From Bellilinea caldifistulae (GTDB taxonomy: Bacteria; Chloroflexota; Anaerolineae; Anaerolineales; Anaerolineaceae): DNA of 32,000 nt. Numbering within the stretch: the stretch's first letter is position 1; each line of letters starts with the position of its first letter. The notes beneath the pieces are model-generated. The model did no database searches, was not told the origin of the DNA, and was given only the letters and a program-made list of their open reading frames with translations. The stretch is from NCBI RefSeq assembly GCF_001306055.1, contig NZ_LGHJ01000019.1, positions 210,001-242,000 on the forward strand, in the 5' to 3' direction. Shown piece after piece: positions 7,602 to 31,750 of the stretch. The translations under genes were made by a program, and so were the position numbers.

Positions 7602-8915
7602 ATGAACTCAAATACCCAATCTCCCCAAACCTCCCGCCAGAAACTCGGTTTTCATTATTTCCCGGATACCCTCCATTACACAGAAAAAGACTTACAGCAA
7701 TGGTTGCCGTTGTTAATGGATTTGGGTGTGGGCTGGATGGTCCTCCGTACGGAAATCAACCGCGCTATTCCAGAGTATTTCATCAGTGGTCTGCTTAAAG
7801 CCGGTATCCAGCCGGTGATTCAATTCCCGGTCAGCCTGCAAAGCCCGCCCGATTTGAGGGCCGTTTCGCCGTTGGTGGAAGCCTATTCCGCTTGGGGCGC
7901 CGTCTTTCATCAATATTTTGACCGTCCCAACATTCATCAATCCTGGCCGGCCAACCAATGGGCTCAGCAAGATCTGGTCGAACGATTTTTGGATCGCTAC
8001 CTGCCGCTGGCGGCTTTGAGCATGGAAGCCGGTGCTTTTCCAATTTTTCCTCCTCTGGAACCGGGCGGTAACTTTTGGGATACGACCTTCCTGCGAGCTT
8101 CTTTACAGGCAATCGAGCGCCGAAAGGAATCTGCCCTACTCGATCGCTTGATCCTTGCCGTTTATGGCTGGACTTTTCAACATCCTTTGAACTGGGGGGA
8201 AGGCGGCCCGGAAAATTGGCCAGAAGCACGCCCTTACTTTACCCCGCCACACTCACAAGACCAGCGCGGTTTCCGGGCTTTCGATTGGTACAGTGCGATC
8301 AGCGAGGCTGTTCTTCAAAAACGCTGTCCGATGATTCTTCTTCAGGCAGGTTTGCCAGCTTCTCCTGAAAAACTTCTTTCAGGTCTTCAAAATACACCAG
8401 AAGTTCAGCAAAACCTTTTGGAAATCATCAACAGCCTGAATACATCTTCAAAAACACCATTGGAAAACAAACCCGCATCCCTTCATTTGCCAGAAGAAAT
8501 CATCAGCGTTAACTTCTGGTTGTTGAGCGCTGATCAAGGTACCCCATCTTACGCCTTTGCATGGTTTGAAGAATCTCAACCGGTTTCCAAAGCAGCCTCT
8601 CATCTTTGTCAGCTGAAAAATGTTCCAATCATTCGCCCGAACATTCATGGAATCCTTGATGAAGACTCTCTTCGAAAAGCGATTCGTCCCCTTCAGCATT
8701 ATCTTTACCTTGGGGAGAACAAAGAAGCCCACCTTGTGTCAGTTTTCCAAAAACACGCCGGTTTCATCTCGCAATACCATCCCACCATCGGTTTTTCACT
8801 GGATGAAGCCCGGTTGGCAAATCGCATTACCCTGGCAGTGACACCCGATCAGGTGCCCGAGGATATTTTGGTTGCCTTGCAAAAACAAGGCTGCCAGATT
8901 GACTGGTTGGAATGA
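7602..8915 (+). CDS. Hypothetical protein, possible TIM-barrel glycosidase-like N-terminal half
   Basis: 437-aa ORF filling the gap between the divergent SDR gene and ftsZ. I recognise no diagnostic motif. There is weak resemblance to the N-terminal part of the 10606..11724 product. Confidence 0.55.
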   Translation: MNSNTQSPQTSRQKLGFHYFPDTLHYTEKDLQQWLPLLMDLGVGWMVLRTEINRAIPEYFISGLLKAGIQPVIQFPVSLQSPPDLRAVSPLVEAYSAWGAVFHQYFDRPNIHQSWPANQWAQQDLVERFLDRYLPLAALSMEAGAFPIFPPLEPGGNFWDTTFLRASLQAIERRKESALLDRLILAVYGWTFQHPLNWGEGGPENWPEARPYFTPPHSQDQRGFRAFDWYSAISEAVLQKRCPMILLQAGLPASPEKLLSGLQNTPEVQQNLLEIINSLNTSSKTPLENKPASLHLPEEIISVNFWLLSADQGTPSYAFAWFEESQPVSKAASHLCQLKNVPIIRPNIHGILDEDSLRKAIRPLQHYLYLGENKEAHLVSVFQKHAGFISQYHPTIGFSLDEARLANRITLAVTPDQVPEDILVALQKQGCQIDWLE

Positions 8916-10381: not shown

Positions 10382-10600
10382 ATGAATGGGTCACTTTATC
10401 ACAAATGCGAGTTGCTTTTCTGGGATGTAGCCATTGATCTTCTCACCCGCTCGGTTTGGCTGCGCAACCTGATTCGGCAAGCAGTTTTGCTCAAAAATTC
10501 ATCTGACCTCAAACTCTATTTCTCCATTGTTGTGCTGAGTGGTTTGTTTGGATTCTTTGTTGGTTTTGCCATTCCCCACTTAATCCAATTCCTCTGGTGA
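10382..10600 (+). CDS. Small hypothetical membrane protein (72 aa)
   Basis: The C-terminal hydrophobic stretch YFSIVVLSGLFGFFVGFAIPHLIQFLW looks like one TM helix. Its stop overlaps the GTG at 10597 of the next ORF. Confidence 0.35.
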   Translation: MNGSLYHKCELLFWDVAIDLLTRSVWLRNLIRQAVLLKNSSDLKLYFSIVVLSGLFGFFVGFAIPHLIQFLW

Positions 10601-10605
10601 ACTTC

Positions 10606-11724
10606 ATGAAACGCTCATTGCAATCAGGAATTGTTCTATTTTTCCTGGGTTTATTGCTTGTTCCGTTGCAGACCATACAGGCCGTCCGCGGTGTACCCGG
10701 TTCACCGGATTTTGGTTATGGAGCATGGATTCATCCCCAATCCAACCTCAGCGCCGAAAGCGCCCAGATAGTGGGTGAAATCCCCCTGGATTGGGTTGCC
10801 ATTCCGCTAAATTGGGCAGAAGTCATGCCCGAAATTTCGAGTGCACCTGCTCTGGACACTGTGGATGTGGTGATGAACGAACTCAACGGGCGGGGGGCAG
10901 TGGTGATGTTACGTCTCTACAACCCGCCCGACTGGGCGAGGAGCGAAACCGGCATCAATTCCGACATCACTGCTCAATGGCTTGTCTGGCTCAGCCAGCG
11001 CTACCCATCCCTGCTTCGAGCAGTCGAGTTGCTTCCGGCTGCCAATACCCGCCAGGGATGGGGAAATACTCCGGATCCCTTTCAATATGCTCTCTTTTTT
11101 CAGGAAGTAAAAGCTTCCCTGCAAGCCCGCGGGAACGACCTCTTGCTAGTCGCGGGCGGACTCCAACCGCTCAATTCCCATTCAGACCCCGAAGATTGGG
11201 ATGACCTTGCCTTCCTGCAGGCTTTATACGCCCAAGGAGCCAAACAATGGATGCCAATTTTGAGCATCCAGATGCCGATGCTCAGCGGCGATCCTGCCCG
11301 TCCTGCCTCCGCTCAGGATCATTTTGCTCTGCGCCGCTACGAACAAACCCGCCAGATTATGCTGGCAAACGATCACGCAGATGGCATCCTCTGGGTGACG
11401 CTGCTTACTCCACCCAATGGTACAATAGATTCGAACGACCAAAAATATACTCAATCGGTTCAACAGGCGGAGTGGCTCAAGCAAGCATTGATTCAGATGC
11501 GCTCTCAACTCTATATGGGGGTGGTGTTTTTACCCAGCCTGAATCCCCCCCCTGCCGGCAGTGTCTTCGGGAATCAGACGGCTTTGCTGACCGAGCACAA
11601 AACCCTCCATCCCTTTTACTCCACCTTACAGGCCATCGTTCAACAGACCAACCCTTCTTCAACCAGCAATCGCCCAGGGCGGCCCAAGACAATTCCCATC
11701 CCGAAATGCTTGCATAAAAAATAA
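10606..11724 (+). CDS. Secreted hypothetical protein (possible glycosidase-like fold)
   Basis: The ATG at 10606 gives MKRSLQSGIVLFFLGLLLVPLQTIQA, which looks like a signal peptide. The alternative GTG at 10597 adds only 3 residues. The ORF is long and uninterrupted with no diagnostic catalytic motif. Confidence 0.6.
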   Translation: MKRSLQSGIVLFFLGLLLVPLQTIQAVRGVPGSPDFGYGAWIHPQSNLSAESAQIVGEIPLDWVAIPLNWAEVMPEISSAPALDTVDVVMNELNGRGAVVMLRLYNPPDWARSETGINSDITAQWLVWLSQRYPSLLRAVELLPAANTRQGWGNTPDPFQYALFFQEVKASLQARGNDLLLVAGGLQPLNSHSDPEDWDDLAFLQALYAQGAKQWMPILSIQMPMLSGDPARPASAQDHFALRRYEQTRQIMLANDHADGILWVTLLTPPNGTIDSNDQKYTQSVQQAEWLKQALIQMRSQLYMGVVFLPSLNPPPAGSVFGNQTALLTEHKTLHPFYSTLQAIVQQTNPSSTSNRPGRPKTIPIPKCLHKK

Positions 11725-11729
11725 CTCTG

Positions 11730-12404
11730 ATGCGCAAACCCTTCCTCGTCCTGTCCATCCTTGCTTTCCTTACCTGCCTGGTGGCAGGCATCGCAATTGC
11801 ACAAAAATCACTGGGAAGCGTGAACCCACAAGAACCTGTTCAGGAAATAGCCCGGCCGGCATCAGCCCATCAGCAAAATATTTTATTAATCCATGTGGAT
11901 CAGCTGGAGAAAAATCAACCGGATGTGATCTCGGTTTGGGGTCTAATCCTTTATTTTCCAGAGCCAAAAATTATCTTGCAGTCCATTTATCCCTCTCCAA
12001 TAGGGCGGGAAAATTTCCCGCTGGCGACCTTTAAACTGACCAAAACAAAAAACCTCAATCCCCCTTTCATTCAACAGGTTTCACTTCAGACCCAAATGGC
12101 CTGGGATAATTACATCCTCATAGATCATCAGGGACTTTCCTTTTTTGCTGCCGGATTAACTGCGAACGAAGTTTTTTCTCCCGAAAATCAAACCAACGGG
12201 GTAATCCCGGTGGAGAGCGCTTACCTAGCCCGTCTTTGTGATCGCTTTGTGGAAATGGAACAAACCGCTTTTCAACAAATCGAATGGAGTCACATCATTC
12301 CCGAACACTGGCGTTCCAATCTTCCATTCGATCAGGCAATTCTTCACTGGGAAAAATTAACTTCCCCACAAAGCCCTATAAAATGTGAAGTGTTTGGAGA
12401 ATAA
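11730..12404 (+). CDS. Membrane-anchored or secreted hypothetical protein
   Basis: 224 aa. The N-terminal MRKPFLVLSILAFLTCLVAGIAIA is hydrophobic (signal or anchor). It follows the previous gene after 5 nt. Confidence 0.55.
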   Translation: MRKPFLVLSILAFLTCLVAGIAIAQKSLGSVNPQEPVQEIARPASAHQQNILLIHVDQLEKNQPDVISVWGLILYFPEPKIILQSIYPSPIGRENFPLATFKLTKTKNLNPPFIQQVSLQTQMAWDNYILIDHQGLSFFAAGLTANEVFSPENQTNGVIPVESAYLARLCDRFVEMEQTAFQQIEWSHIIPEHWRSNLPFDQAILHWEKLTSPQSPIKCEVFGE

Positions 12405-20393: not shown

Positions 20394-22055
20394 ATGGATC
20401 CATTAAAAATAGGCTCTCATACTCGCTTTAATTCCCCTCAAAATCTTTTCTGGTCCGGTGACACAGCCGCACTTTCCACGGATGTTGAAATCATTCGCCA
20501 AAGACTGTTATCCTTAGACTCACCCTTGTTGGTGGTAACTGACGGTCAGAATGTCTGGCTCACGGATGAGGGAACCATCCTGCCAGGGGAGAAAAACTCC
20601 ACCACCTCCTACCGCTGGCTGGCAACCCTGCCTCCTTCACCAATCGAATCGCTTGGTGATTCATCTTTTCAGGAATGGTACGGCTGCCGTTACGCTTATT
20701 ACAGCGGCGCCATGGCCAACGGGATTGCCTCCACCCGCCTGGTCATTGCCATGGGCAAAGCCGGTTTTCTGGCATCCTTTGGTGCGGCAGGTCTTTCCCC
20801 CGAACGGATCGAGGCGGCTATCCACGAAGTTCAAACTGCCCTGCCGCAAGGGCCGTATGCCTTCAACCTGATCAACAGCCCAAATGAACCCGCCCTGGAA
20901 CGTCGCGCGGCCGAGTTGTATGTCCAACACGGCATTCGCAGCGTGGAGGCTTCCGCTTATCTGGAAATTACCCCTGCCCTGGTGTACTACCGCGCCAACG
21001 GATTAATCAGTCAGCCGGACGGTACAATCCGCATTCAAAACCGGCTGATTGCAAAATTATCCCGTAAAGAAGTCGCCCGTCAGTTCATGCTCCCGGCCCC
21101 TGATGAGATCCTCAATCAATTGGTGCAGGAGAACCGATTGACCGAAACTCAGGCAAATCTCGCCCGCCGTGTTCCAATGGCCGACGACATCACCGTTGAG
21201 GCTGATTCGGGAGGACACACCGATAACCGCCCATTAGTGGGACTGCTCCCATCTATTCTGACCCTGAGGGATGAGATTCAAGATCAAATGCAGTACCCCG
21301 TTCCGATTCGAATTGGCGCAGCCGGGGGAATCAGCACACCTCAGGCAGCCCTGGCAGCGTTAATGATGGGGGCTGCTTATATTGTCACCGGTTCGGTCAA
21401 TCAGGCCTGTATTGAGGCCGGGGCATCCGAACACACCCGCCGCCTGCTCGCCCAGGCCGACATGGCGGATGTTACCATGGCACCTGCCGCCGACATGTTC
21501 GAAATGGGCGTCAAAGTCCAGGTTTTGAAACGCGGCACCATGTTTGCCATGCGGGCTTCCAAGCTCTACGAATTGTATTCCCGCTATCCATCCCTTGAAG
21601 CCATCCCCGTTGAGGAACTTCAAAAACTGGAAAAGACCGTTTTCAAGCGCCCAGTCGAAGAAATCTGGCAGGATACGGTGCGATTCTTCCAGCAGCGCGA
21701 TCCGCGTCAGTTAGAAAGAGCCGAGAAAGATCCGCGTCATAAAATGGCGCTGGTCTTTCGCTGGTACCTGGGACTGTCTTCCCGCTGGTCAAACAGCGGT
21801 GAAAAGGGCCGCGAGATGGACTACCAGATCTGGTGCGGGCCGGCAATGGGAGCTTTCAACGAATGGGTGCGGGGGACCTATCTTGAAAAGCCTGAAAATC
21901 GTTCTGTCGTAGATATTGCTCTCCACATCCTGACCGGGGCGGCATATTTGCAGCGTGTCCGTTTGCTGAACGCCTACGGCGTCCAAACAAGCCCTGATCT
22001 GGAGCGTTACCAACCACTCCAGCCATTGACAGAGTCTATCCTCGAAAAGGCTTGA
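20394..22055 (+). CDS. pfaD: PfaD-family trans-acting enoyl reductase (FMN, 2-nitropropane-dioxygenase-like) of PUFA/polyketide synthases
   Basis: SFQEWYGCRYAYYSGAMANGIASTRLVIAMGKAGFLASFGAAGL plus the ADDITVEADSGGHTDNRP and GAAGGISTPQA blocks are the hallmarks of PfaD-type ER. I chose the ATG at 20394 because it follows GAGAGG. The track start at 20349 is a TTG. Confidence 0.9.
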   Translation: MDPLKIGSHTRFNSPQNLFWSGDTAALSTDVEIIRQRLLSLDSPLLVVTDGQNVWLTDEGTILPGEKNSTTSYRWLATLPPSPIESLGDSSFQEWYGCRYAYYSGAMANGIASTRLVIAMGKAGFLASFGAAGLSPERIEAAIHEVQTALPQGPYAFNLINSPNEPALERRAAELYVQHGIRSVEASAYLEITPALVYYRANGLISQPDGTIRIQNRLIAKLSRKEVARQFMLPAPDEILNQLVQENRLTETQANLARRVPMADDITVEADSGGHTDNRPLVGLLPSILTLRDEIQDQMQYPVPIRIGAAGGISTPQAALAALMMGAAYIVTGSVNQACIEAGASEHTRRLLAQADMADVTMAPAADMFEMGVKVQVLKRGTMFAMRASKLYELYSRYPSLEAIPVEELQKLEKTVFKRPVEEIWQDTVRFFQQRDPRQLERAEKDPRHKMALVFRWYLGLSSRWSNSGEKGREMDYQIWCGPAMGAFNEWVRGTYLEKPENRSVVDIALHILTGAAYLQRVRLLNAYGVQTSPDLERYQPLQPLTESILEKA

Positions 22056-22094
22056 AAGGCTTGCCTCAACAGGACGACAAGCCCCGGGTCCATT

Positions 22095-22862
22095 TCATTC
22101 GCTCAGTTGAATTTCCCGCAAGCGAATAGATGGAATTTCACCGGTTTGTAGTTGAACCGCCAGCGTGACCATGTAGTTGCCGCGTTGCTGCCACCAGCCA
22201 ATTAACCGATGGCCTTCTTCCGGCAAATTGCTGCGGTATTCCAAAATCCGCCAGTCTCCCAAATTCGTTGCCATGCCGGGAAACACCTGAATCAGGTGAG
22301 TATCCACAGCCAACCCGAGCCGCAAAGCCTTCAGGGCGGCCTCTTTGGCGCTCCACAATAATGTGGTACGTCCCGCCTGTGCCTCTGTGGGGGCTGAAAT
22401 TACCCATTCGATTTCTTCACCGGTGAAGTAATCCTGCAAGAACGCAGGATGCCGTTCCTCAATCCATTCCAGGTCAATCCCAATCCAGATACCCTCATTT
22501 GCGGTATAGGCTGCCGCCGCTCGTTCGCTGCGGTGAGAGATGCTCAGACAACCAGCCAGCGGTTCACCACCCACTTTAACCAGCGGATAGCCGTGATGGT
22601 GATTTTCAACCGAGATTTCAGCCATCGTCTTTCCGGCAAGAGCCGGAACAACACTCAGCAGCATCCGTTTGGCCGTCCAGCGGCCGCTCAACCATTCGCT
22701 GCGCCGCTTGGGGAATCGAATTGTTTCCAGGAAACGCTGTTCCTCGTGAGACAACCAGCTGGTATCAAAAATGGTGAGGTCTCCCCTCTGCGGGAAAACC
22801 TCACCGATGCACCAATCTAAATTGATCTGGCGCTGCCTTTTAGAGAGTGGCATCTGTCCCAT
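22095..22862 (-). CDS. Sfp-type 4'-phosphopantetheinyl transferase (PfaE-like)
   Basis: 255 aa. It has the GIDLEWIE (GxD-I/L-E) and WSAKEAALKA (W/FxxKEAxxK) motifs and the N-terminal FxxxRRSEWLSGRWxAK block. The start (ATG at 22862 or 22853) lies inside the last codons of the megasynthase gene. Confidence 0.85.
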   Translation of the reverse strand: MGQMPLSKRQRQINLDWCIGEVFPQRGDLTIFDTSWLSHEEQRFLETIRFPKRRSEWLSGRWTAKRMLLSVVPALAGKTMAEISVENHHHGYPLVKVGGEPLAGCLSISHRSERAAAAYTANEGIWIGIDLEWIEERHPAFLQDYFTGEEIEWVISAPTEAQAGRTTLLWSAKEAALKALRLGLAVDTHLIQVFPGMATNLGDWRILEYRSNLPEEGHRLIGWWQQRGNYMVTLAVQLQTGEIPSIRLREIQLSE

Positions 22863-25800
22863 TGACCAGTAATTTCATCGGTTTAAGCAGTGCCGCATCT
22901 ACGGTGTAGGGCAATGCCACAGTCCGGTAATCCTTCACTTCCAGGTAGACCATGCCGTTCTGATCCACCAGCCTGGCATCAAATGCCAGACTGCCATCAC
23001 TCGATCGGCTGGGAATGACCTCGGCAAACAATGGCTTGTCCTCCTGCGGCACACTGCGATGCAGCACCAGTTCGCCAATTGAGCGCGGTAATGCCAATGT
23101 GCCGGTCGCTCCCGCTTCCCAGATGCCAGCAGTCTGCAAAATCGCTTCCAGCAAAATCGGCATGGTTACCAACGAGACCGGCTGCTCGGTGATAGCCGGC
23201 AGGGATTCACGGACTTTGCCCAACACCTTCCCCTCCACCCGTTGGACGCCTTCCAGGACTTGGAAAGAAGGGCCGTGGAAGTAGAGACGATAGATCTCAT
23301 CGCTGGCAACGGTGTAAGCGCCGTTCCAACCGGGCGGTTGAACTTTAACCGATGCAGATTTTTCCGTCTTTGGGGTCAAATAAACTTTTCCGGCAAAGTG
23401 CTGGATGACTTCATTCGGACGAGTTTTAGCAACCAGGGTCGATTCAAGGCTGACATAAGCCACCAAACCACTCGCCTCGCGGATTACTCTGGCTTTCCAG
23501 GTTACCCGGCGCGGTTCGTTGCGGTAGAACTTGAAGGGAGCCAGGAATTGAACATCTTCCAGACGTTCAACTGCAAAGCCGACTTTTTCAGCACCCAACA
23601 CTGAAGCAACATGCTTCGCCGCCGCTGAAAATCCTTCAATTCCCATCACCCCCGGCAGCAAGGGGATTCCGTTCAAAGCATGGTCTTTGAGAAACGGCTG
23701 GTCATTCGGATTCAATTCGGCTTCCAGCAGCACACCGGTTTGCAGGTCAAAGCCGTTCACTGCGCTGAGCATGACATGCGCCGGGCTACCTTCGCGTAAA
23801 GCCTGATTAGCGGCTTCCAGGTTCAAACCGCTCTCCTTGCGGAGCGGTTTTTCCAGAACACCCAACGAACCGGAAACTACCACCTCACTGACCGGCTCAT
23901 TCCCTACCAGTTCTTCATAAACAAAGCGGGCTGCCTGCTTCGGAGGCATCTGGTCAATCCCGCCCATTTCCATTAATTGAGGAATATATCCGCGACTCGC
24001 CATCCCCACCTGCGCCCAGGCGCTCCAATCAATGGTGACCACCCGCATTTCCGGGTGCAGACCACGCAGGTGAGAAGCAGCCTTTGCCAGCCAGTCATTG
24101 GCAGCACTGTAATCGGTCTGACCGGAATTGCCAAACCTGCCGGCAACCGAACCAAACAGCAACACCTGCTTTGGCAATCTATCCGCTGTTTGAAGGGCTT
24201 TGTAAAGATTGAAGAAACCTCCGGCTTTAACCTGAATAGTCGTACGGAATTCTTCCTCCGGTTTGAGATGCAGCTTTCGGCTGCGTTCAATGCCGGCTGC
24301 ATGAATCAGGACATCCACGCGACCATTCTCCTCGACAATCTGACCAATGGTCTCCCCTACCTGATGAGGATCGGTAACATCACATAACCGGTAGACCACG
24401 CTGGCTCCAAGTGAACGGGCAGTCTGAATGGCATCCAGAATGCCAGCCATACGCTCCAATGCAGCCAGTTTCTCTTCCACCTGCGCAGGGGAAGGTTTTT
24501 GTCCGTTGGCGCTCATTTCTCTGAGCAGGTCTTTTTTCAAGCCATCCCGATCCGCTTTTAATCGCTGGAGGGCTGCATCCTGAGGATCGGCTAACGGACT
24601 GCGTCCCAGCAGGTAGAAGATGCCCTGCGTTCGCTGTGCCAGATCCGTAAGGATTGGCGCAACAATACCGCCAGCCCCGCCGCTGATAATCATTACCGGT
24701 TTCTCAGGTAGAGTTGATTGGACCGGATTGTTTCCTTCTTCTTCAAAGAGGGCAATGCTAAAGCGCTGATCGCCCTCCCAGCCGACTTCAACCACAGAGG
24801 CATCGCCGAGCGTCTCTCCGACCAGGCGGGCAGCAATCTGGCTATCATTTGCGCCTGCTTCAAAATCTACCACCTTGACCAACGCGTTTGGCCGTTCACG
24901 GCTAATAGCTTTGGCAAAGCCGGAAATCAAACCGCCCGAAACATTCTTAGCCGCAGTTACGCAGGTTCCATGCAGGCCGCCCATGCGGGTTGCACAGATC
25001 AAGAAAGGCTCACCTTCCACCATCCGGAGCAAGTGATAGAGGCGTACCAGGCGATTATCTACCAGAGATTGCCAGACACGAACATCCTGTTCCGCCAGTG
25101 ATGGCTCATGGTTCAAACCGACCAGGTAATACAAACCCTGAACCCTGCCAGTGCTTTGGAAGGAGGCAACTTTTTCCTGCCATTCCTCGGGCGTCTGGGA
25201 GGAATCCAGAGTCAAAATTTGGACTTTGCGGGCGCGCAACCTGCGGGCAAGGGAATCGGCTGTTTTGCCTTCATCACTCACCAGAATCACCCTGCTGTTT
25301 TCATCTAGAGTGACTCCGCTCGGCAGACACAAATCCAATTTCGGCAGCAGCACCGGTTTTGGAACCCTTCGGCGGATGAGAATTTGCGTCTCTGCCGGCT
25401 CTTCGGTTGGTTTAGGCTCTTCAACGGTCTCCATGGCAACCGGAGCTTGCACCTCTTTGGTTGACAGCGCCTGCGCCGTCGGCTCTTTTGTTGAAACGGA
25501 CTCAACAACAGGGGTAGCGGTGACAGGTTTTTCTTCGGAAACGGGCAGTTCCTCGGTGCTGGTCGCCTTCCCATTCGTTGATAACGCCTCAACCATGAAG
25601 CCGATGACTTTTTTCAAGGTGTTGTAATCCACCAACCTGAGGTCTTCCCGCCGCGGGATGTTGTAGTGGGTGCGGATAGTCGCAAACAGTTCCGCCTGTT
25701 TTACCGTGTCAATTCCTAAATCGGCTTCCAGGTCCAAATCCAAATCCAGCATTTCAACCGGATAGCCCGTCTTTTCACTGACAACCGACAGCACGTAGGT

Positions 25801-28800
25801 TTTAATTTCCTCTTCATCCACACCGGAGATGGAAGTCCGTGTTGGTGTTGAAGAAGGCTGTTCGCTCTCAGCCTGGACTGGTGCCGATACTTCGGCAGGT
25901 TCAACCGCCTTGCTGACCGGCTGGGCAACCGTTGTAGCAGCCGGTTGAGACTGACTGACAACCCCGCTGCTCAAAGCGTCCACCATGAAGTCAATCACCT
26001 TCTCCAGGGTGTTGTAATCCACCAGCCGCAGGTCTTCCCGCCGCGGGATGTTGTAGTGGGTGCGGATGGTAGCAAACAATTCAGCCTGTTTGACGGTATC
26101 AATCCCTAAATCGGCTTCCAGGTCAAGCCCCAGGTCGAGCATTTCAACCGGGTAACCGGTCTTTTCACTGACCACTGAAAGCACATATTCTTGAATGGCT
26201 GCCCGGTCAACGGCCGGGGCTGCAGAAAGAGACGGGACTGATTGAGCCACCTGCATAGGTATCGGCTGAGGTTCAGACTTATCCGAAGCAGGCATGGCTA
26301 CATCTTCAGCCGGTTGAGCCTGAGCAGCTATCGCAGCCGCATTTTCCGCCATGAAGGAAATCACTTTGTTGAGGGTGTTGTAATCAACCAGCCGCAAATC
26401 TTCCCGTCTGGGGATGTTGTAATGCGTTCGAATTGCAGCAAAGATTTCAGCTTGTTTCACCGTATCAATGCCCAAATCGGCTTCCAGATCCAGATCCAAA
26501 TCCAGCATCTCGACCGGGTAACCCGTTTTTTCACTGACCAGATTGAGAACAAATTCTTTGATCTCATCTACCTTGACCGGTGATCTGCCGGCGGGCGAGG
26601 AAGTTCCCAAGACAACAGGCTGGAGTTTTTCCTTTTCTTCAACCGCTTCAACAGGATGAGCGGCAGGCTGCGGACTCGGCACACCGACCGGTTGAGATTG
26701 CGGCAATTGATCCGGCTGCTCTGCCCAGCGGGTAGGTCCCTGCCCATACTGCCAGCGGGATTTAGCCGGCGGTTTAACCGGCGGTCCCATGTGGCGGATC
26801 CGGAGAGTGCGTTTTTCCACCTCCAATTCGGCTTTTTCGTAACCCGCAATTTCCGCCAGCCATTGCTGATAGACTGGTTGATTGATCCTTTCCTTTACAT
26901 GGGCAACCACCCGGAATAACGCCATGGCAATTTGCGAGCCAAAACCGGCCCCCAACCGCAGAGCATAACTGACCGGGTATTCACCGCCTTTTGATAGGTT
27001 CAAATCACCCAGATCCGGGTCGGGTTCAAAATTCTCATCATAATTGGCAATCGGCGGCACAATTCCATGTTCCAGGGCTTTGATCGCCACAACATCTTCA
27101 ATCCCCACGCCCATTGCATGACCGGTGTACCCTTTGGTATTTGCGATGATCACCTGATTGGCTTTATCGCCAAAGGTGTATCGGAGTGCCTGAATCTCCG
27201 CGGAAGCCGAACCGCCTCTGGCGGGGGTGTAGGTTTCGTGAGACATGAACATGGTTTGAGCGGCAATTTCTTCCCGGCGAATACCAAAACGCTGCTCGGC
27301 CGTGCTGATCAGGCGATTCATGATTTCCCGCACATGGGGAACATCCAGGCGGGTTCCATGATAAGCGCTATTGGCGATATCCGTCGCCAACACCTCACAA
27401 ATCGCCCGCATGCCGCGTTCTCGCACCGCATCTTCGGACTCAACTACCAGTGCGGCCGCCCCCATTCCCATGATCATCCCATTCCGCCGGCGGTCAAACG
27501 GCAAAGCAGCCATACGCAGATTACCTTCTGTGGTAGCCGCACCAGAAACGAACAAGCCGGTTCCAATCCACTCCGCCAGCGGACCGCCGGTCACATCGTC
27601 ACCCGCAATGATGACGACTCGGCGGCAACGTCCGGCGCGAATCCAGTCTTCAGCAACCGCAATCGCATGGGTTGTGGTGGCACAGGCAGCGTTGACATGC
27701 GTATTCGGGCCGCGTGCGCCAATATATTCAGCAAATTGCGAATGCCCCATTGAAAGCACCCGGAAGACAAAACGGCGATCAAAATGGTAATCCATCTCTT
27801 TGAGCCTTGTTTCCAGTGCTTTGATTCGCTCGCGCAGCAGGTTTCTCACCCCCGTCTGATCCACTGCGACCAGACTGAGAATGTTGCGCACTTCTTCTAA
27901 CTGCTTCTCAACTTGCTTGTATTCGGAATAACGCGACATCTCTTCCGCCATTTCATCCAGCCCCGGGAAGGCAGAAGCAAAGATCACACCGGTTTCATCA
28001 GCCAGCGCTTCTGGCAAGCGCCAGCGGTCGGGGAGATAAGTGCCTTTACTGGTCTTACGATAGGCCATTACCAGGGGAATTCCGGCATCCCTCAAAGCTT
28101 CAATGCCGGCAGCCACTGCGAGTTGGGTGGTAATATCCCAGGCATCCGCACGCTCTACCGGAATGCCGAACTCTTCCACCGGATCAAATTGCCCGCGCTG
28201 TCCACCCAACTTTACGGTCAAATCCACGCTTTCAATCGGGATCATCTGGGCGCCGGCTTCGCTTTTTTCCAAACGGGTTGGCCGCTTTTCCACCATTCGC
28301 TTGCGCAATTCTTCCGGCAAAGGTTCAATGCGGATTTCGCCTTTTAAAATACTCAGGATATTCTCATCATTGAAAACGGGTTTTGATCTGCCCGGCAGCC
28401 CCAAGCCTGCACCGCTGATCACGACCGAACCCGTCAATGGCAGGCGACCGTCGTTGACCGGTGTCTGTACTTCAACCATCGGTTTTACAGACGCGCTAAT
28501 CGCAACCGGGGGGACTGATTTCACACTTACCTCATCAATAGCGGATTTTTGAGTGGACACTTGTGCTGGCGTTTCAAGTTTCTGTTCTCGACCGGGCGCA
28601 ATTCCCGCTGCCAGCAGACCACAAACTGCTTCGTTAAAACTGACCACTGCACCTTTTCGGGGATGATTGGTTGCCAGCAGCATGACACCCGAGCGGTCTT
28701 TGAAAATATCATTTGCCAGAGCGTTCAATACCCGTTTCGGCCCAATCTCGACAAAGACTCTTGCTCCGGCATTATAGAGCGTTTCCATGCCTTTAATAAA

Positions 28801-31395
28801 TTGCACTGGCGAGGCAACCTGCTTTCCCAAAATATCCAGAATCTGTTCCCGGCTGGTGGGGTAAAACTCGCCGGTCACATTGGCTGCCACCGGAATCTTG
28901 GGGGATTGCAGGTTCATACGCGCAATAACCTGTTTGAGGGGCTCGCTTGCCGGGGCAACAATTTTTGTGTGGAACGCATGAGAGACAGAGATGCGGGTGG
29001 CCTGGTAACCGGCTTTTTCAAAAGCCTCTAAGGCAGCCTGAATACCTGCCGTGCTGCCACCCACGACCGATTGCATGGGGCTATTGATGTTGGCGATGAC
29101 CACATATTCCGAGATTTCCTGTAAGATCCGTTCAACCTCTTGAATGGGAGCAGAAACTGCCACCATACCACCATTATCCGCCACCGAGACTTTTTTCATC
29201 TCACGGCCGCGTGCCGAAACGACTTCCAAAGCCTCCGCAAAAGTCAATACGCCGGATGCCACCAGTGCGGCATATTCCCCAAGGCTGTGACCAATCACAA
29301 AATCGGGGGAAAACCCGAATTTCTCCATCAACCGCAGCAATGCGACATTGGCCGTCAACATCGCTGGCTGAGTGATCGCCGTATCCCGTAATGCGGCTTC
29401 GGCTTGTTTTAACGATTCTTCGTCCCCCTCTACATAAATGTAACTGGTTAAGGGACGCCCCAAAATGGGTGTCATGATCGCATCAGCCTCTTTGAAGGTA
29501 TCCGCTACAAGTGGTTCGGCTTCGCACAGGTCTTTGAGCATGTTGACATATTGAGATCCCTGCCCGGGGAACATAAAGGCAACTTTACCAGCCTTCCCGC
29601 TGCCCCGATAAACCCCCTGGGCAGTCAGCGCCTGCCAGGCATTTGGGGCTTCATTGTCGAGCGTTTTAAGCGCTTTTTCTCCCCGTGAAATCAACTCCTC
29701 AACCGATGAGTAGTCAATCACCAATCGCTCGGGCTTGGTTACCATCGCCGCATCTGGCAATTGGGAAGGTGGTAATTGACCCTGGCGGGCATTTTCTAAA
29801 ATTTGAGCCAGTTGTTCCTTTAACTGCTGGCTGTTTTCCCCACTCAGGAAGGCGATTCCGCGATAAGGCACGGGCAAGGTCGAAGAAACCGCTTCCGCCA
29901 CGACTTGCGGAGCAGGACTTTCCACCTGCGCCGCTTTTCTTTCCGGCACCGCAAACACCTTTGTTTCAGAAGTCAGCAGCCCCGGCACCCATTCTTCCAG
30001 CACCATGTGAAAGTTGGTGCCGCCAAAACCAAACGAACTGACTCCAGCCCGGCGGATTTCTCCAGGGGCATTTTCCCACGGTCGGGTTTCGGTATTGACG
30101 TAAAAGGGAATGCGGTCGAAATCAATATTTGGGTTGGGTTTATGGAAATTCACAGAGGGCGGCAAAACTTTTTCGTACAAGGCGTACATGGCTTTCAGGA
30201 CACCCGCCGCCCCGGCCGCACTCTTCAAATGACCAATATTGGACTTGACCGATCCCATCGCAATGCTGCGCGGTGGCAGACCAAACTTTCCAAAAACCTC
30301 GTTGAGAGATTGTGTCTCCACCACATCCCCAACCCGCGTGGAGGTGCCATGGGCTTCAATCAAACCCACACTGGCAGGGTTTACGCCGGCATTCTTCCAG
30401 GCCCGTTCAATCGCACGCTGCTGACCAAGAGGATTGGGAGCCGTAATCCCTTTACCTTTGCCATCGCTGCTGGCGCCAACCCCGCGGATAACCGCATAAA
30501 TTTTATCCCCGTCCCGTTCAGCATCGGCCAGCCGCTTTAACAAAAAGAGCACAGCCCCTTCGCCCATGACGAATCCATTCGCCCCTTCAGCGAACGGCCG
30601 TGAACCGTCCGGCGAAAGCGCCCCAATCTTACAGAATTTTACGAACCCCTCAACCCCCATATTGCGGTCCACACCGCCCGTCAAAACCGCATCAAACTGG
30701 TGATTGACCAGCCCGTCAATAGCGGCTTGAACCGCTGCATGAGAAGAAGCACAGGCAGCGTCTGTGATGAAATTTGGGCCAGAAAAATTGAACACATTGG
30801 CAATTCGGCCGGCAATCACGTTGCCCAGTTCACCCGGCATGGTATCTTCGGTAATATTGCTCACCCTTTTGCGGATATTTTGCGTCATTCCCTCCAGCAG
30901 CGCCTTCTGCACTTCTGGTGGTAGTTGGGCAAATGCTTCCACTTCTTTAAGGGCTTCCATATAATCCGGCAGACGAATTCGTAGGCTGGTTATGTAATGG
31001 TTTTCACCCGCCAGCGCATTGCCAATAATCACCGCCGTACGTGTTCCATCAAGGGGTTTCTGCGGGTAACCGTAATCTAAAAGAGCCTGCCGCGCTACAC
31101 TGATGCCCCACTTTTGGCTTTCATCCATCACCGCCAGAACGTTTGGTGGAATGGGGATCCCCCATTTCAGCGGCTCGAAGGGATAAGATCGTACCCACGC
31201 CCCAATTTTGGTATAAGTTTTATCCGGTGCTTTTGGATCAGGATCATAATACAAATCCACCCGCCATCGATCGGGCGGAACCTCGGTCACTGAATATCGC
31301 CCTTGCTTGATATTGTTCCAGAATGCAGGCGCATCTTCAGCATCCGGTAAAATTGCCCCCACTCCGACAATTGCAACGGCTCTAGGATCAAACAT
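22840..31395 (-). CDS. PfaA-like iterative type I FAS/PKS megasynthase, 2851 aa, domain order KS-AT-KS-ACP-ACP-ACP-KR-DH
   Basis: A single uninterrupted ORF preceded by AAAGGAGAG. Domain calls are listed as separate features and rest on active-site motifs read from the translation and verified on the DNA. Confidence 0.95.
   Translation of the reverse strand: [2851 protein letters not shown]
22891..23778 (-). other. Domain DH: polyketide-synthase-type (double hot-dog) dehydratase (aa ~2540-2835)
   Basis: HxxxGxxxxP motif [10 protein letters not shown] with His2572 (codon 23680-23682, CAT, checked). [11 protein letters not shown] is GYxYGPxF-like. LLEAILQ sits where PKS DH domains have DxxxQ/H, so the acid residue here is Glu. 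Confidence 0.8.
23986..25380 (-). other. Domain KR: ketoreductase with N-terminal structural subdomain (aa ~2006-2470)
   Basis: Rossmann motif [23 protein letters not shown], and the catalytic region [21 protein letters not shown] (Tyr2429). Confidence 0.85.
25570..25818 (-). other. Domain ACP3 (aa ~1860-1942), Thr1897 at the expected Ser position
   Basis: [62 protein letters not shown]. Thr codon ACG at 25705-25707. Confidence 0.8.
25960..26208 (-). other. Domain ACP2 (aa ~1730-1812), Thr1767 at the expected Ser position
   Basis: [62 protein letters not shown]. Thr codon ACC at 26095-26097. Confidence 0.8.
26326..26574 (-). other. Domain ACP1 (carrier-like domain 1, aa ~1608-1690), Thr1645 at the expected Ser position
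   Basis: [62 protein letters not shown]. Thr codon ACG at 26461-26463. Confidence 0.8.
26905..28434 (-). other. Domain KS2: second, apparently catalytically complete ketosynthase (aa ~988-1497)
   Basis: Starts [12 protein letters not shown]. Cys1238 in VNAACATT (codon 27682-27684, TGT, checked). His in MSHETYTP and [15 protein letters not shown] follows the Cys. About 250 residues precede the Cys (I recall roughly 160 for FabF-type KS, not counted here), including a predicted helical, charged insert at aa ~1150-1205. Confidence 0.8.
28711..29586 (-). other. Domain AT: malonyl-CoA:ACP acyltransferase (aa ~604-895)
   Basis: [16 protein letters not shown] with Ser704 (codon 29284-29286, AGC, checked). 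SHAFHT is the HAFH motif associated with malonyl specificity. Confidence 0.9.
29998..31386 (-). other. Domain KS1: PfaA-type ketosynthase (aa ~4-466)
   Basis: N-terminus [22 protein letters not shown]...DRW and the PfaA-like insert [17 protein letters not shown]. Active-site Cys215 in TDAACASS (codon 30751-30753, TGT, checked). His in [11 protein letters not shown] and [10 protein letters not shown]. Confidence 0.9.
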
Positions 31396-31750
31396 TTTTC
31401 TCTCCTTTGAAAGAAGGTGTTTTTTTTCAGGTATCGCTAAAATGGATAAACCATGTCTTAGAGAGACACGGCAAATTTACTAACAGACTGGATTGCTATT
31501 CAGAAGGATGAGAAGGATGAGAGTACAGGTACACAACCTTCCAATTTCTCCGATCGAACAAACCCTATCAAGACAGCCCTCCAAAAATCGCCTTTTCTGG
31601 TTGATAAACTCTGAACGTAATAACCCCTTTACAGACAGGGAGTTACGTAAAAAGAACGGTTTTTCCAACATATCAAACAGGTGGTATCAAGAAATTTACA
31701 CGTGGTATACTCAATCTGTCTGATTTTCTCACAAACGGATGCAAATAACC

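What the first reader, a model, noticed from the sequence alone, without database searches (positions are those of the whole stretch)
20394..31395. Minimal three-gene PUFA-synthase-like locus without PfaB/PfaC, FabA-type dehydratases or any release domain
**Seen in sequence.** The whole locus is megasynthase (22840..31395, -), overlapping PPTase (22095..22862, -) and convergent PfaD-type ER (20394..22055, +). Upstream of the megasynthase is a 355-nt intergenic region and a divergent unrelated gene. Upstream of pfaD are pfk and a C-N hydrolase. No KS-CLF-DH-DH protein, stand-alone AT, TE or AGPAT domain is present in the window.

**Established knowledge.** Marine pfaA-E clusters and myxobacterial pfa1-3 clusters rely on FabA-like DH/isomerase domains (on PfaC/Pfa3) for cis double bonds. 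Some also carry an acyltransferase for off-loading.

**Inference.** KS, AT, KR, PS-DH and a trans ER are enough for full reductive cycles. The product is therefore more likely a saturated, hydroxylated or trans/mono-unsaturated long chain than a PUFA. How chain length is set and how the product is released is not explained by anything in the window. A link to unusual long-chain lipids reported in some Chloroflexota is pure speculation.
Basis: partly seen in the sequence, partly recalled or inferred. Interest (0 to 1): 0.75.

Follow-up and report, generated by a model that had tools for sequence, protein, structure and literature searches.

The report
Two-ketosynthase lipid synthase with threonine carriers

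Summary
All three genes are at the stated coordinates and intact. The window is Bellilinea caldifistulae (Anaerolineae). No PfaB, PfaC, FabA-type dehydratase or thioesterase lies within 10 kb on either side.

The locus is not a stripped-down PUFA synthase. The megasynthase reads KS-AT-KS2-ACP×3-KR-DH, followed by a PPTase gene. That matches the uncharacterised "Type R" secondary-lipid cluster of Shulse & Allen (2011).

- **Second ketosynthase.** KS2, called a CLF in 2011, keeps Cys/His/His/Lys in 120 of 120 homologs, so by sequence it is an intact ketosynthase.
- **Spread.** Relatives occur in at least five phyla.
- **Enoyl reductase swap.** Of 58 related loci with both flanks, 42 have an acyl-CoA-dehydrogenase gene upstream and 16 have PfaD downstream. 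None has both or neither. The PfaD loci form one Anaerolineales clade, so PfaD probably displaced the dehydrogenase as trans enoyl reductase.
- **Malonyl supply.** 33 of 59 loci also carry acyl-CoA carboxylase genes.
- **Carrier site.** The attachment residue is Thr in 727 of 738 ACP domains and Ser in 11.

Best reading: an iterative, fully reducing synthase making saturated long acyl chains. Product, release step and any type II FAS are untested. Verdict: new variant of a known kind.

The parts
22840..31395 (-). Megasynthase, 2851 aa: KS1-AT-KS2-ACP(Thr)x3-psiKR/KR-DH
   Evidence: ORF. Pfam and NCBIfam domains. 100% identical to P0001, Bellilinea caldifistulae. Catalytic motifs intact and conserved in homologs.
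29986..31383 (-). KS1 (aa 5-470), PfaA-like ketosynthase, Cys215
   Evidence: PF00109/PF02801/PF16197. TIGR02813 aligns aa 7-932 to PfaA positions 9-916. The DAACAS motif is present in 120/120 homologs.
28675..29586 (-). Acyltransferase (aa 604-907), GHSLG and HAFH motifs (malonyl type)
   Evidence: PF00698. TIGR00128 fabD 229 bits, below its cutoff. GHSxG in 120/120 and HAFH in 119/120 homologs.
26845..28443 (-). KS2 (aa ~985-1517): second FabF-like ketosynthase with intact Cys1238/His1386/Lys1421/His1426 and a ~56-aa helical hairpin insert (aa 1146-1201)
   Evidence: Pfam. PDB FabF hits at E 2e-26. Catalytic residues invariant in 120/120 homologs. AF2 model pLDDT 87; FabF fold with TM 0.84.
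25570..26574 (-). Three tandem ACP domains (aa 1608-1685, 1738-1815, 1865-1942), each with DLGIDTVKQAE. Thr1645, Thr1767 and Thr1897 sit at the phosphopantetheine site.
   Evidence: PF00550 x3. Thr codons ACG, ACC, ACG at 26461-63, 26095-97 and 25705-07. The Thr aligns to the Ser of PigH and Streptomyces ACPs. Family-wide count is 727 Thr to 11 Ser.
24013..25305 (-). Structural plus catalytic ketoreductase (aa 2031-2461), YSAAN motif
   Evidence: PF08659, PF00106. Motif present in 111/120 homologs.
22909..23748 (-). PKS-type dehydratase (aa 2550-2829), HxxxGxxxxP motif at His2572
   Evidence: PF21089 plus PF14765. Motif present in 119/120 homologs.
22095..22862 (-). Sfp/AASDHPPT-type phosphopantetheinyl transferase, 255 aa, overlapping the megasynthase stop by 23 nt; P1b' motif LSISH
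   Evidence: PF01648/PF17837. Family profile hits human AASDHPPT and Sfp. Found next to the synthase in 56 of 62 loci with at least 3 kb downstream. Motif.
20394..22055 (+). PfaD-family FMN enoyl reductase, 553 aa, convergent with the PPTase (39-nt gap)
   Evidence: TIGR02814 680 bits, above its cutoff; PF18328, PF03060, PF21607. Syntenic in every Anaerolineales locus with enough downstream sequence (18, of which 16 also have the upstream flank).
31396..31750 (.). 355-nt intergenic region between the megasynthase start and a divergent 212-aa gene with no Pfam hit
   Evidence: Sequence. Gene calls. No Rfam match and no strong sigma-70-like site.
22773..22805 (-). Terminator-like hairpin (14-bp stem, 8 GC pairs, T-run) starting 35 nt after the megasynthase stop codon, inside the PPTase ORF
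   Evidence: The overall count of such sites is not above the shuffled expectation, and this site's function was not tested.

Best explanation
The locus encodes an iterative, fully reducing type I fatty-acid/polyketide-like synthase of the 'Type R secondary lipid' class.

**Shown by sequence.**
- One polypeptide carries two catalytically intact ketosynthases (KS1 PfaA-like, KS2 FabF-like with a helical insert).
- It also carries a malonyl-type AT, three tandem carrier domains, a KR and a PKS-type DH.
- A translationally coupled Sfp-type PPTase gene follows it.
- A PfaD-family FMN enoyl reductase gene is the third conserved member of the unit.

**Inferred.**
1. The PPTase activates the carriers on their conserved threonines.
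2. AT loads malonyl units.
3. KS1 and KS2 share the elongation cycles, probably divided by chain length as the PfaA and PfaC ketosynthases are in PUFA synthases.
4. KR, DH and the trans-acting PfaD reduce each beta-keto group fully.
5. The product is therefore a saturated, or at most occasionally hydroxylated or trans-unsaturated, long acyl chain. No FabA-type isomerising dehydratase is present to make cis double bonds, so a PUFA is unlikely.
6. PfaD is a lineage-specific replacement, at the base of the Anaerolineales, for the acyl-CoA-dehydrogenase-family partner that relatives in other phyla use.

**Not encoded in the unit.** Chain release and chain-length control are not in the three genes. 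They presumably use the AT or KS2, or unlinked acyltransferases or thioesterases.
For: **Domain content.**

**Catalytic residues.**
- KS2 Cys/His/His/Lys are invariant in 120/120 homologs.
- KS1, AT, KR and DH motifs are present.
- The KS2 model has a FabF fold with TM 0.84 and pLDDT 87.

**Match to Type R (PMC3098273).**
- The architecture and the downstream PPTase match.
- Acidobacterial relatives have a carboxylase gene between synthase and PPTase, as reported for Koribacter.
- The PPTase has the P1b' motif given for Types M-T.

**Conservation of the unit.**
- The three genes stay together in Anaerolinea thermolimosa, Longilinea arvoryzae and about 16 further Anaerolineales loci, while the flanks differ.
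- Megasynthase homologs are 53-89% identical and PfaD homologs 60-99% identical, full length and intact.

**ER assignment.**
- Among 58 loci, ACAD and PfaD are perfectly mutually exclusive: 42 ACAD only, 16 PfaD only, 0 both, 0 neither.
- The PfaD loci form a single clade in the KS2 tree.

**Malonyl-CoA demand.** Carboxylase genes are linked in 33 of 59 loci.

**No cis-bond or release genes nearby.** None within +/-10 kb.
Against: - No product is known for any Type R cluster, so the chemistry is inferred from domains only.
- An acyl-CoA dehydrogenase is an unusual enoyl reductase. The ACAD/PfaD exclusivity could reflect something other than functional equivalence.
- The carrier domains lack the canonical serine. 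If Thr cannot be phosphopantetheinylated, the model fails.
- The presence or absence of type II FAS, pfaC or pfaB elsewhere in the genome could not be tested.
- Expression was not tested.
- The division of labour between KS1 and KS2 is an analogy, not a result.
Confidence: 0.55

Rival explanations
1. Same enzyme chemistry, different role. The synthase is the main (primary) fatty acid synthase of these bacteria, a bacterial type-I-like FAS, rather than a producer of an accessory 'secondary' lipid.
For: - Carboxylase genes are linked in 33 of 59 loci, including one PfaD-type locus, L013.
- The synthase was found across the named Anaerolineae genera hit here and in at least five phyla.
- In Bellilinea it sits among housekeeping genes such as pfk, ftsZ, mutS and ddl.
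- The domain set allows complete reductive cycles.
- Shulse & Allen raise the same idea for Types M and S in genomes that lack fabA/fabZ.
Against: - From my own recollection of the species descriptions, not checked here: Anaerolineae are described with iso- and anteiso-branched C15 acids. Those normally need FabH-type priming by a type II FAS.
- From my own recollection of these genomes, not checked here: Acidobacteria and Actinomycetota that carry the cluster have type II or type I FAS.
- No FAS II inventory could be made with these tools.
Confidence: 0.2
2. The system makes a partly reduced long-chain product, because the trans ER and/or the DH act only in some cycles. Examples would be a hydroxy- or keto-alkyl chain as in heterocyst-glycolipid synthases, a polyene, or a hydrocarbon precursor.
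For: - Trans-acting ERs in PUFA synthases act selectively (established knowledge).
- HglE-type and Ars-type relatives make hydroxylated or very long chains (PMC3098273).
- Two distinct KS domains could partition cycles that have different reductive outcomes.
Against: - No tailoring, glycosyl-transfer, reductase or olefin (ole) genes are conserved next to the unit.
- No exotic lipid I know of is shared by all the phyla that carry the synthase (own knowledge).
Confidence: 0.15
3. It is a true PUFA synthase whose PfaC and PfaB partners are encoded elsewhere in the genome.
For: - The megasynthase just passes the PfaA subfamily cutoff (1040 bits against 1010), and PfaD is a full family member.
- Split pfa clusters are known.
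Against: - There is no pfaB/pfaC within +/-10 kb in Bellilinea, A. thermolimosa or L. arvoryzae.
- The architecture and the PPTase motif are Type R, not Type A/B.
- Relatives in other phyla use an ACAD instead of PfaD and also have no linked PfaC.
- From my own knowledge, PUFAs are not reported in Anaerolineae.
Confidence: 0.05
4. The carriers are dead because Thr cannot accept phosphopantetheine, so the megasynthase is a relic or has a non-synthase role.
For: - From my own knowledge: E. coli ACP S36T is not modified by AcpS, and the PROSITE phosphopantetheine pattern fixes Ser.
- No report of a Thr-linked carrier was found.
Against: - The Thr is nearly invariant (727 of 738), and Ser is the only alternative seen.
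- All catalytic motifs of an 8.5-kb gene are preserved across phyla.
- A dedicated PPTase with intact catalytic Asp/Glu residues is co-inherited.
Confidence: 0.03

Closest known systems
Type R secondary-lipid synthase cluster (Shulse & Allen 2011, PLoS One 6:e20146): Koribacter, Solibacter, Elusimicrobium, Roseiflexus
   Same: - A single pfaA homolog with KS-MAT-'CLF'-ACP(3-6)-KR, followed by a PPTase gene.
- A PPTase with the P1b' (hShxH) motif.
- Occurrence in Chloroflexi and Acidobacteria.
- A carboxylase gene between synthase and PPTase in acidobacterial members.
- Product unknown.
   Different: - The Anaerolineales version adds a convergent PfaD enoyl reductase, which is not part of the published Type R description.
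- It lacks the upstream acyl-CoA-dehydrogenase gene that I find in the other relatives.
- The 'CLF' is shown here to keep the full KS catalytic set.
- The Thr at the carrier site is not mentioned in that paper.
Canonical bacterial PUFA synthase PfaABCDE (Shewanella, Photobacterium, Moritella) and myxobacterial Pfa1-3
   Same: - An iterative type I system with tandem ACPs.
- A PfaA-like KS-AT...KR-DH backbone.
- A PfaD trans enoyl reductase and a dedicated PPTase.
- Two elongating ketosynthases in the complete system.
   Different: - No PfaB, no PfaC, no CLF without a cysteine, no FabA-type DH/isomerase and no AGPAT.
- The second KS is fused between AT and the ACPs.
- The PPTase motif is P1b', not (F/S)NxSH.
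- The carriers have Thr, not Ser.
Type J cluster (Planctomyces limnophilus): pfaD + pfaA [KS-MAT-ACP3-KR] (PMC3098273)
   Same: A minimal cluster made of a PfaD ER and a single PfaA-like megasynthase, without PfaB or PfaC.
   Different: - Type J has no second KS and no adjacent PPTase.
- Its KS groups with Type I clusters, so it has a different evolutionary origin.
Enediyne PKSE (SgcE, CalE8): KS-AT-ACP-KR-DH-PPTase
   Same: An iterative KS-AT-ACP-KR-DH order with its own PPTase immediately downstream (fused in PKSE). PKSE is related to PUFA-type KS domains (own knowledge).
   Different: - PKSE has one KS and one ACP with Ser.
- It has no ER partner and makes a conjugated polyene released by a dedicated thioesterase.

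Membership tests
Type R secondary-lipid synthase cluster (Shulse & Allen 2011) | Single pfaA homolog with the order KS-MAT-CLF(KS-like)-ACP(3-6)-KR | tested here: met
   KS1 5-470, AT 604-907, KS2 985-1517, ACP x3, KR 2235-2461, plus a C-terminal DH.
Type R secondary-lipid synthase cluster (Shulse & Allen 2011) | PPTase gene immediately downstream of the synthase | tested here: met
   22095..22862 overlaps the synthase stop. Found in 56 of 62 related loci.
Type R secondary-lipid synthase cluster (Shulse & Allen 2011) | PPTase carries the P1b' motif hShxH rather than (F/S)NxSH | tested here: met
   LSISH at aa 106-110; no (F/S)NxSH. S107 is invariant and S109/H110 are at least 90% conserved in the family alignment.
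Type R secondary-lipid synthase cluster (Shulse & Allen 2011) | KS groups phylogenetically with the reference Type R sequences (Koribacter, Solibacter, Elusimicrobium, Roseiflexus) | tested here: inconclusive
- The KS2-based genome scan recovers Korobacteraceae, Bryobacteraceae and Chloroflexia (Kouleothrix, Oscillochloris) loci with the same architecture.
- Acidobacterial loci have the carboxylase gene between synthase and PPTase, as described for Koribacter.
Canonical Pfa (PUFA) synthase, Types A/B | PfaA-family megasynthase | tested here: inconclusive
   TIGR02813 scores 1040 bits against a cutoff of 1010, in three stretches. The best stretch covers only KS-AT (aa 7-932), and the extra KS is not part of PfaA.
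Canonical Pfa (PUFA) synthase, Types A/B | PfaC (KS-CLF-DH(FabA-like)x2) and PfaB (AT) in the cluster | tested here: not met
   None in the window or within 10 kb either side. None in the A. thermolimosa or L. arvoryzae loci. The rest of the genome could not be tested.
Canonical Pfa (PUFA) synthase, Types A/B | PfaD enoyl reductase | tested here: met
   TIGR02814 scores 680.6 bits against a cutoff of 449; PfaD_N, NMO and FabD_helical_ins domains.
Canonical Pfa (PUFA) synthase, Types A/B | PfaE-type PPTase with the P1b motif (F/S)NxSH | tested here: not met
   The motif is absent; LSISH is present instead.
Chain length factor (CLF) | KS-like domain that lacks the active-site cysteine | tested here: not met
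   KS2 has Cys1238, His1386, Lys1421 and His1426, invariant in 120/120 homologs.
Canonical acyl carrier protein (PROSITE PS00012 type phosphopantetheine site) | Serine in the (D/E)LGxDS(L/I) motif at the N-terminus of helix II | tested here: not met
   - All three domains read DLGIDTV.
- The Thr aligns with the Ser of the PigH and Streptomyces ACP structures.
- 727 of 738 family ACP domains have Thr.
- The fold family itself is met: PF00550 x3.
Sfp-type (group II) phosphopantetheinyl transferase | Two-lobed ~230-aa enzyme with the GxD-E and W/FxxKE(A/S)xxK motifs | tested here: met
   PF01648 plus PF17837. The family profile hits human AASDHPPT (E 7e-15) and Sfp (E 1e-12). G128, D130, E174 and K178 are invariant and E132 is at least 90% conserved.

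The most novel reading that the evidence does not exclude
The locus represents a large, multi-phylum family of iterative type I fatty-acid-like synthases. Three features would make it new.

- **Threonine-linked carriers.** The tandem carrier domains would be phosphopantetheinylated on threonine, not serine. As far as I know, O-(4'-phosphopantetheinyl)threonine is an undescribed modification. The co-inherited Sfp-type PPTase would install it.
- **Two active ketosynthases.** Elongation would use two active KS domains on one polypeptide.
- **Interchangeable reductases.** Enoyl reduction would be supplied by either an acyl-CoA-dehydrogenase-family flavoprotein or PfaD.

The synthase could be the main fatty acid source in some of these lineages.
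Probability: 0.35. Interest if true: 0.8.

Novelty: new variant of a known kind. Interest (0 to 1): 0.62.

Why it matters
- **An open question since 2011.** Type R clusters are among the most widespread PfaA-like systems. The KS2 domain alone defines 616 clusters at 50% identity (E <= 1e-30) and at least 561 genomic loci. Yet no product, reductase partner or release mechanism is known.
- **A testable reductase assignment.** The Anaerolineales three-gene version is the most compact form, about 11 kb. It has a well-understood reductase (PfaD) in place of the puzzling acyl-CoA dehydrogenase. That makes it the obvious construct for heterologous expression. The ACAD/PfaD swap also predicts what the dehydrogenase does in the other phyla.
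- **The carrier site.** The near-universal Thr challenges the textbook rule that phosphopantetheine is attached to serine. If confirmed, it would define a new modification and a PPTase/carrier pair that may be orthogonal to host AcpS and Sfp systems. Such a pair would be useful for labelling and pathway insulation.
- **Lipid biomarkers.** Anaerolineae, Acidobacteriota and Acidimicrobiia are abundant in sludge, soils and sediments. Knowing the product would help interpret lipid biomarkers from those settings.

Tried and rejected
- **Literature.** Ten full-text searches found no characterisation of Type R products, of KS-AT-KS synthases, or of Thr-linked carrier proteins. Two of these were poorly targeted and uninformative. 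The Elusimicrobium genome paper is not held. Two recent PUFA-synthase papers do not mention this family.
- **KS2 as a CLF.** Rejected, because Cys/His/His/Lys are invariant.
- **KS2 as a KAS III-type primer.** The weak ACP_syn_III Pfam hit covers only about 35 residues around the cysteine. The triad is Cys-His-His and the fold is FabF-like, so this was rejected.
- **A misaligned carrier site.** I tested whether another conserved Ser could be the real attachment site. No other column is conserved for Ser; the best reaches 62%.
- **Stand-alone type II FAS genes near related loci.** None were found in 1.6 Mb of flanks. This says nothing about the rest of those genomes.
- **RNA and promoter elements.** There is no Rfam family in the window. 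Promoter and terminator scans are no richer than shuffles.
- **Direct PDB search with the PPTase.** It found nothing. A family profile was needed to reach PDB hits.
- **A Chloroflexota-specific lipid link (long-chain diols).** Considered and set aside, because the synthase is shared by at least five phyla.
- **A Pks13-like head-to-head condensation role for KS2 using a long-chain acyl-CoA carboxylase.** Considered, but left as speculation without evidence.
Full report
**1. The observation**

The window comes from Bellilinea caldifistulae (class Anaerolineae, Chloroflexota). The 2851-aa product of 22840..31395 (-) is 100% identical to a protein that NCBI and UniRef assign to that species. The same gene sits on its 3.70-Mb scaffold.

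- the megasynthase at 22840..31395 (-);
- a 255-aa ORF at 22095..22862 (-), which overlaps the megasynthase by 23 nt;
- a convergent ORF ending at 22055 (+).

For the third ORF, the 553-aa form starting at 20394 matches the length of its homologs.

Profile searches confirm the assignments:
- The megasynthase has KS, AT, three PP-binding domains, KR and a PKS-type DH. It just passes the PfaA subfamily model (1040 bits against a cutoff of 1010).
- The small ORF is an ACPS/4PPT-type PPTase.
- The convergent gene is a clear PfaD-family member (TIGR02814, 680 bits against a cutoff of 449).

The surroundings are also as described. The 355-nt upstream gap, the divergent gene, pfk and the C-N hydrolase are all confirmed. 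No window ORF of at least 100 aa is a PfaB, PfaC, FabA-type dehydratase, thioesterase or AGPAT. The 10 kb beyond the window edge has none either. It holds only an unlinked PlsC-type acyltransferase next to an MFS transporter, about 6 kb upstream.

**2. What the finding text omits: a second ketosynthase**

Between the AT and the carrier domains lies a complete second ketosynthase, KS2, at aa ~985-1517.
- Pfam finds both KS halves there.
- The best solved relatives are FabF enzymes, at E 2e-26.
- An AlphaFold model (pLDDT 87) superposes on FabF with TM 0.84 relative to the target. It carries an extra helical hairpin of about 56 residues.

The catalytic Cys1238, His1386, Lys1421 and His1426 are invariant in all 120 closest homologs. 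KS1, AT (GHSLG and HAFH, i.e. malonyl type), KR (YSAAN) and DH (HxxxGxxxxP) also keep their motifs.

The architecture is therefore KS1-AT-KS2-ACP3-KR-DH. It is not the PfaA order KS-AT-ACPn-KR-DH.

**3. It belongs to a described but uncharacterised class**

Shulse & Allen (2011, PMC3098273) sorted pfa-like clusters into 20 types. Their "Type R" is one pfaA homolog with KS-MAT-CLF-ACP(3-6)-KR, followed by a PPTase gene. They found it in Koribacter, Solibacter, Elusimicrobium and Roseiflexus. The product is unknown.

The window matches this description in three ways:
- the domain order;
- the downstream PPTase;
- the PPTase motif. That paper says Types M-T carry hShxH rather than the PfaE-type (F/S)NxSH, and the window PPTase has LSISH with no (F/S)NxSH.

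What was called a CLF in 2011 keeps its cysteine, so by definition it is a KS and not a CLF.

I could not place KS1 in a tree with the reference sequences. The indirect evidence for membership is good, however:
- A scan of one genome per species with a KS2 profile found at least 561 loci.
- Among the 80 retrieved are Korobacteraceae, Bryobacteraceae and Chloroflexia (Kouleothrix, Oscillochloris).
- Acidobacterial loci have a carboxylase gene between synthase and PPTase, as reported for Koribacter.

The family is large and spans phyla. KS2 alone defines 616 clusters at 50% identity with E <= 1e-30. Carriers include Chloroflexota (Anaerolineae, Caldilineae, Ardenticatenia, Chloroflexia), Acidobacteriota, Actinomycetota (Acidimicrobiia, Microthrix, Nostocoides), Myxococcota and Rhodothermales. 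A connection to lipids peculiar to Chloroflexota is therefore unlikely.

**4. The three-gene unit is real, and PfaD is a lineage-specific replacement**

In Anaerolinea thermolimosa and Longilinea arvoryzae the order megasynthase, PPTase, convergent PfaD is kept while all flanking genes differ.

I called ORFs in 83 loci and clustered the neighbours. The results were:
- A PPTase accompanies the synthase in 56 of 62 loci with at least 3 kb downstream.
- Among the 58 loci with both flanks present, 16 have PfaD downstream and 42 have a ~557-aa acyl-CoA-dehydrogenase-family gene immediately upstream on the same strand. None has both and none has neither.
- That upstream gene has all three ACAD Pfam domains and retains the YEGT catalytic-base motif. 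Its best NCBIfam similarity is to acryloyl-CoA reductase, below that model's cutoff.
- The PfaD-type loci form a single clade in a neighbour-joining tree of KS2, corresponding to the Anaerolineales.
- The 120 best PfaD homologs are all at least 60% identical, and every named one is from Anaerolineae.

The simplest reading is one non-orthologous displacement at the base of this order. PfaD took over the job of the ACAD. Since PfaD is an established trans-acting enoyl-ACP reductase, that job is most likely enoyl reduction. This part is inference.

Carboxylase genes are linked in 33 of 59 loci, in two forms:
- separate BC, CT and BCCP genes in Chloroflexota, including one PfaD-type locus, L013;
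- a fused, eukaryote-like ~1850-aa protein in Acidobacteriota and Actinomycetota.

The linkage points to a high demand for malonyl-CoA.

**5. An unexpected feature: threonine at the carrier site**

All three ACP domains read DLGIDTVKQAE. The residue that aligns with the phosphopantetheine-bearing Ser of solved ACPs is Thr. The solved examples read DLGVDSI in PigH and DLDVDSL in a Streptomyces ACP. The window residues are Thr1645, Thr1767 and Thr1897, with codons ACG, ACC and ACG.

This is not a quirk of one genome:
- In the 120 close homologs, 394 of 394 motifs have Thr.
- In 150 representatives at 50% identity the count is 344 Thr to 16 Ser.
- Over 738 extracted ACP domains from 270 proteins it is 727 Thr to 11 Ser.
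- No other column is conserved for Ser.

Ser is the only alternative seen, for example in an all-Ser relative, P0177. The hydroxyl is therefore what selection keeps.

The cognate PPTase looks like an ordinary Sfp/AASDHPPT-type enzyme with its metal-binding and catalytic acidic residues intact.

From my own knowledge:
- The PROSITE phosphopantetheine pattern fixes Ser.
- E. coli ACP S36T is not modified by AcpS.
- Only a serine-linked form is listed as a known modification.

Three literature searches found no report of a Thr-linked carrier, and the 2011 paper does not mention the residue. Whether the Thr is actually modified is untested. I consider it likely, because an 8.5-kb gene with every catalytic motif preserved across phyla would otherwise have no working carrier.

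**6. How it most likely works**

Shown by sequence:
- two intact KS domains;
- a malonyl-type AT;
- three carriers, a KR and a DH;
- a coupled PPTase and a conserved PfaD partner.

Inferred:
1. The PPTase loads phosphopantetheine on the Thr residues.
2. AT supplies malonyl units.
3. KS1 and KS2 share the elongation cycles, possibly by chain length as the PfaA and PfaC ketosynthases do.
4. KR, DH and PfaD reduce each cycle fully.

With no FabA-type isomerising dehydratase, cis double bonds cannot be introduced by the PUFA route. The expected product is a saturated, or occasionally hydroxylated or trans-unsaturated, long chain.

Chain-length control and release are not encoded in the unit, and no other neighbour is conserved. 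Candidates are the AT acting as a transferase to CoA, as in yeast-type FAS, KS2 itself, or unlinked acyltransferases. None of these is tested.

**7. Rivals**

| Rival | Main point for | Main point against | Weight |
|---|---|---|---|
| Primary FAS of these organisms | Carboxylase linkage, broad conservation, housekeeping context | Branched C15 acids reported for Anaerolineae imply FabH priming (own recollection) | about 0.2 |
| Partly reduced product (hydroxy- or keto-chain, polyene, hydrocarbon precursor) | Trans ERs can act selectively | No conserved tailoring genes | about 0.15 |
| True PUFA synthase with PfaB/PfaC elsewhere | Passes the PfaA model; has PfaD | Type R architecture and PPTase motif; none linked in any locus | about 0.05 |
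| Dead carriers | Thr is not a known attachment site | Strong conservation of all catalytic motifs | about 0.03 |

For the first rival, no FAS II inventory could be made with these tools.

**8. Novelty and verdict**

The cluster class has been known since 2011 but remains uncharacterised. The following were not in the literature I could search:
- the PfaD-bearing three-gene form;
- the demonstration that the "CLF" is an intact KS;
- the ACAD/PfaD exclusivity;
- the near-universal Thr carrier site.

I rate the locus a new variant of a known kind, with moderately high interest. Most of that interest comes from the Thr carriers, and from the fact that this compact form makes the Type R question directly testable.

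**Limits**
- No whole-genome search was possible.
- The tree is neighbour-joining on one domain.
- The locus sample is the best 80 of at least 561 hits.
- All chemistry is inferred from sequence.

Noticed in passing
window 25705-25707, 26095-26097, 26461-26463 (-); family-wide in P0001-P0270: All three ACP domains have Thr (DLGIDTV) at the canonical phosphopantetheinyl-serine position. Across 738 family ACP domains the count is 727 Thr to 11 Ser. No report of Thr-linked carriers was found in the literature I could search.
   Followed up: yes
window 26845-28443 (-): A second, FabF-like ketosynthase sits between AT and the ACPs. It has an invariant Cys/His/His/Lys set and a ~56-aa helical hairpin insertion (aa 1146-1201). 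The 2011 classification annotated it as a 'CLF'.
   Followed up: yes
L022-L083, immediately upstream of the megasynthase (e.g. L035:5223-6893): Relatives outside the Anaerolineales have a ~557-aa acyl-CoA-dehydrogenase-family gene, with a ~170-aa C-terminal extension, directly upstream of the synthase. It is perfectly mutually exclusive with PfaD: 42 ACAD only, 16 PfaD only, 0 both, 0 neither.
   Followed up: yes
L065:11899-17427 and 17 other Acidobacteriota/Actinomycetota/Myxococcota loci; L030:16386-17933, L031:18435-19928 in Chloroflexota: Carboxylase genes are linked to the synthase. One form is a single-chain ~1850-aa protein (BC-BCCP-ACC_central-CT) that resembles eukaryotic acetyl-CoA carboxylase and lies between synthase and PPTase. 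Its substrate (acetyl-CoA or long-chain acyl-CoA) is unknown.
   Followed up: partly
window 22773-22805 (-): The strongest terminator-like hairpin in the region (14-bp stem, 8 GC pairs, then ATTTTTGATA) starts 35 nt after the megasynthase stop codon, inside the 5' part of the overlapping PPTase ORF. It could limit PPTase expression to read-through levels.
   Followed up: no
L084:1651-3752 (about 6-8 kb beyond the window's right edge): An MFS transporter gene is followed by a PlsC-type acyltransferase (PF01553), a pairing reminiscent of lysophospholipid transporter/acyltransferase pairs. It is not conserved next to the synthase in A. thermolimosa or L. arvoryzae.
   Followed up: partly
L084:7520-8512: A diphosphomevalonate-decarboxylase-like gene (MVD-like_N, GHMP kinase, MDD_C) lies 1.5 kb upstream of the megasynthase on the opposite strand. 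It suggests mevalonate-pathway genes in this Anaerolineae genome.
   Followed up: no
window 140-2338 (-), 7602-8915 (+), 10597-11724 (+), 11730-12404 (+): Four sizeable ORFs (732, 437, 375 and 224 aa) have no Pfam match at E <= 0.001. The 437-aa ORF sits directly upstream of ftsZ and overlaps it.
   Followed up: no
L003:19098-19877: In Longilinea arvoryzae a signal peptidase II (Peptidase_A8) gene is inserted between the PPTase and PfaD. An alpha/beta-hydrolase gene lies divergent from PfaD. Neither is conserved in other loci.
   Followed up: no
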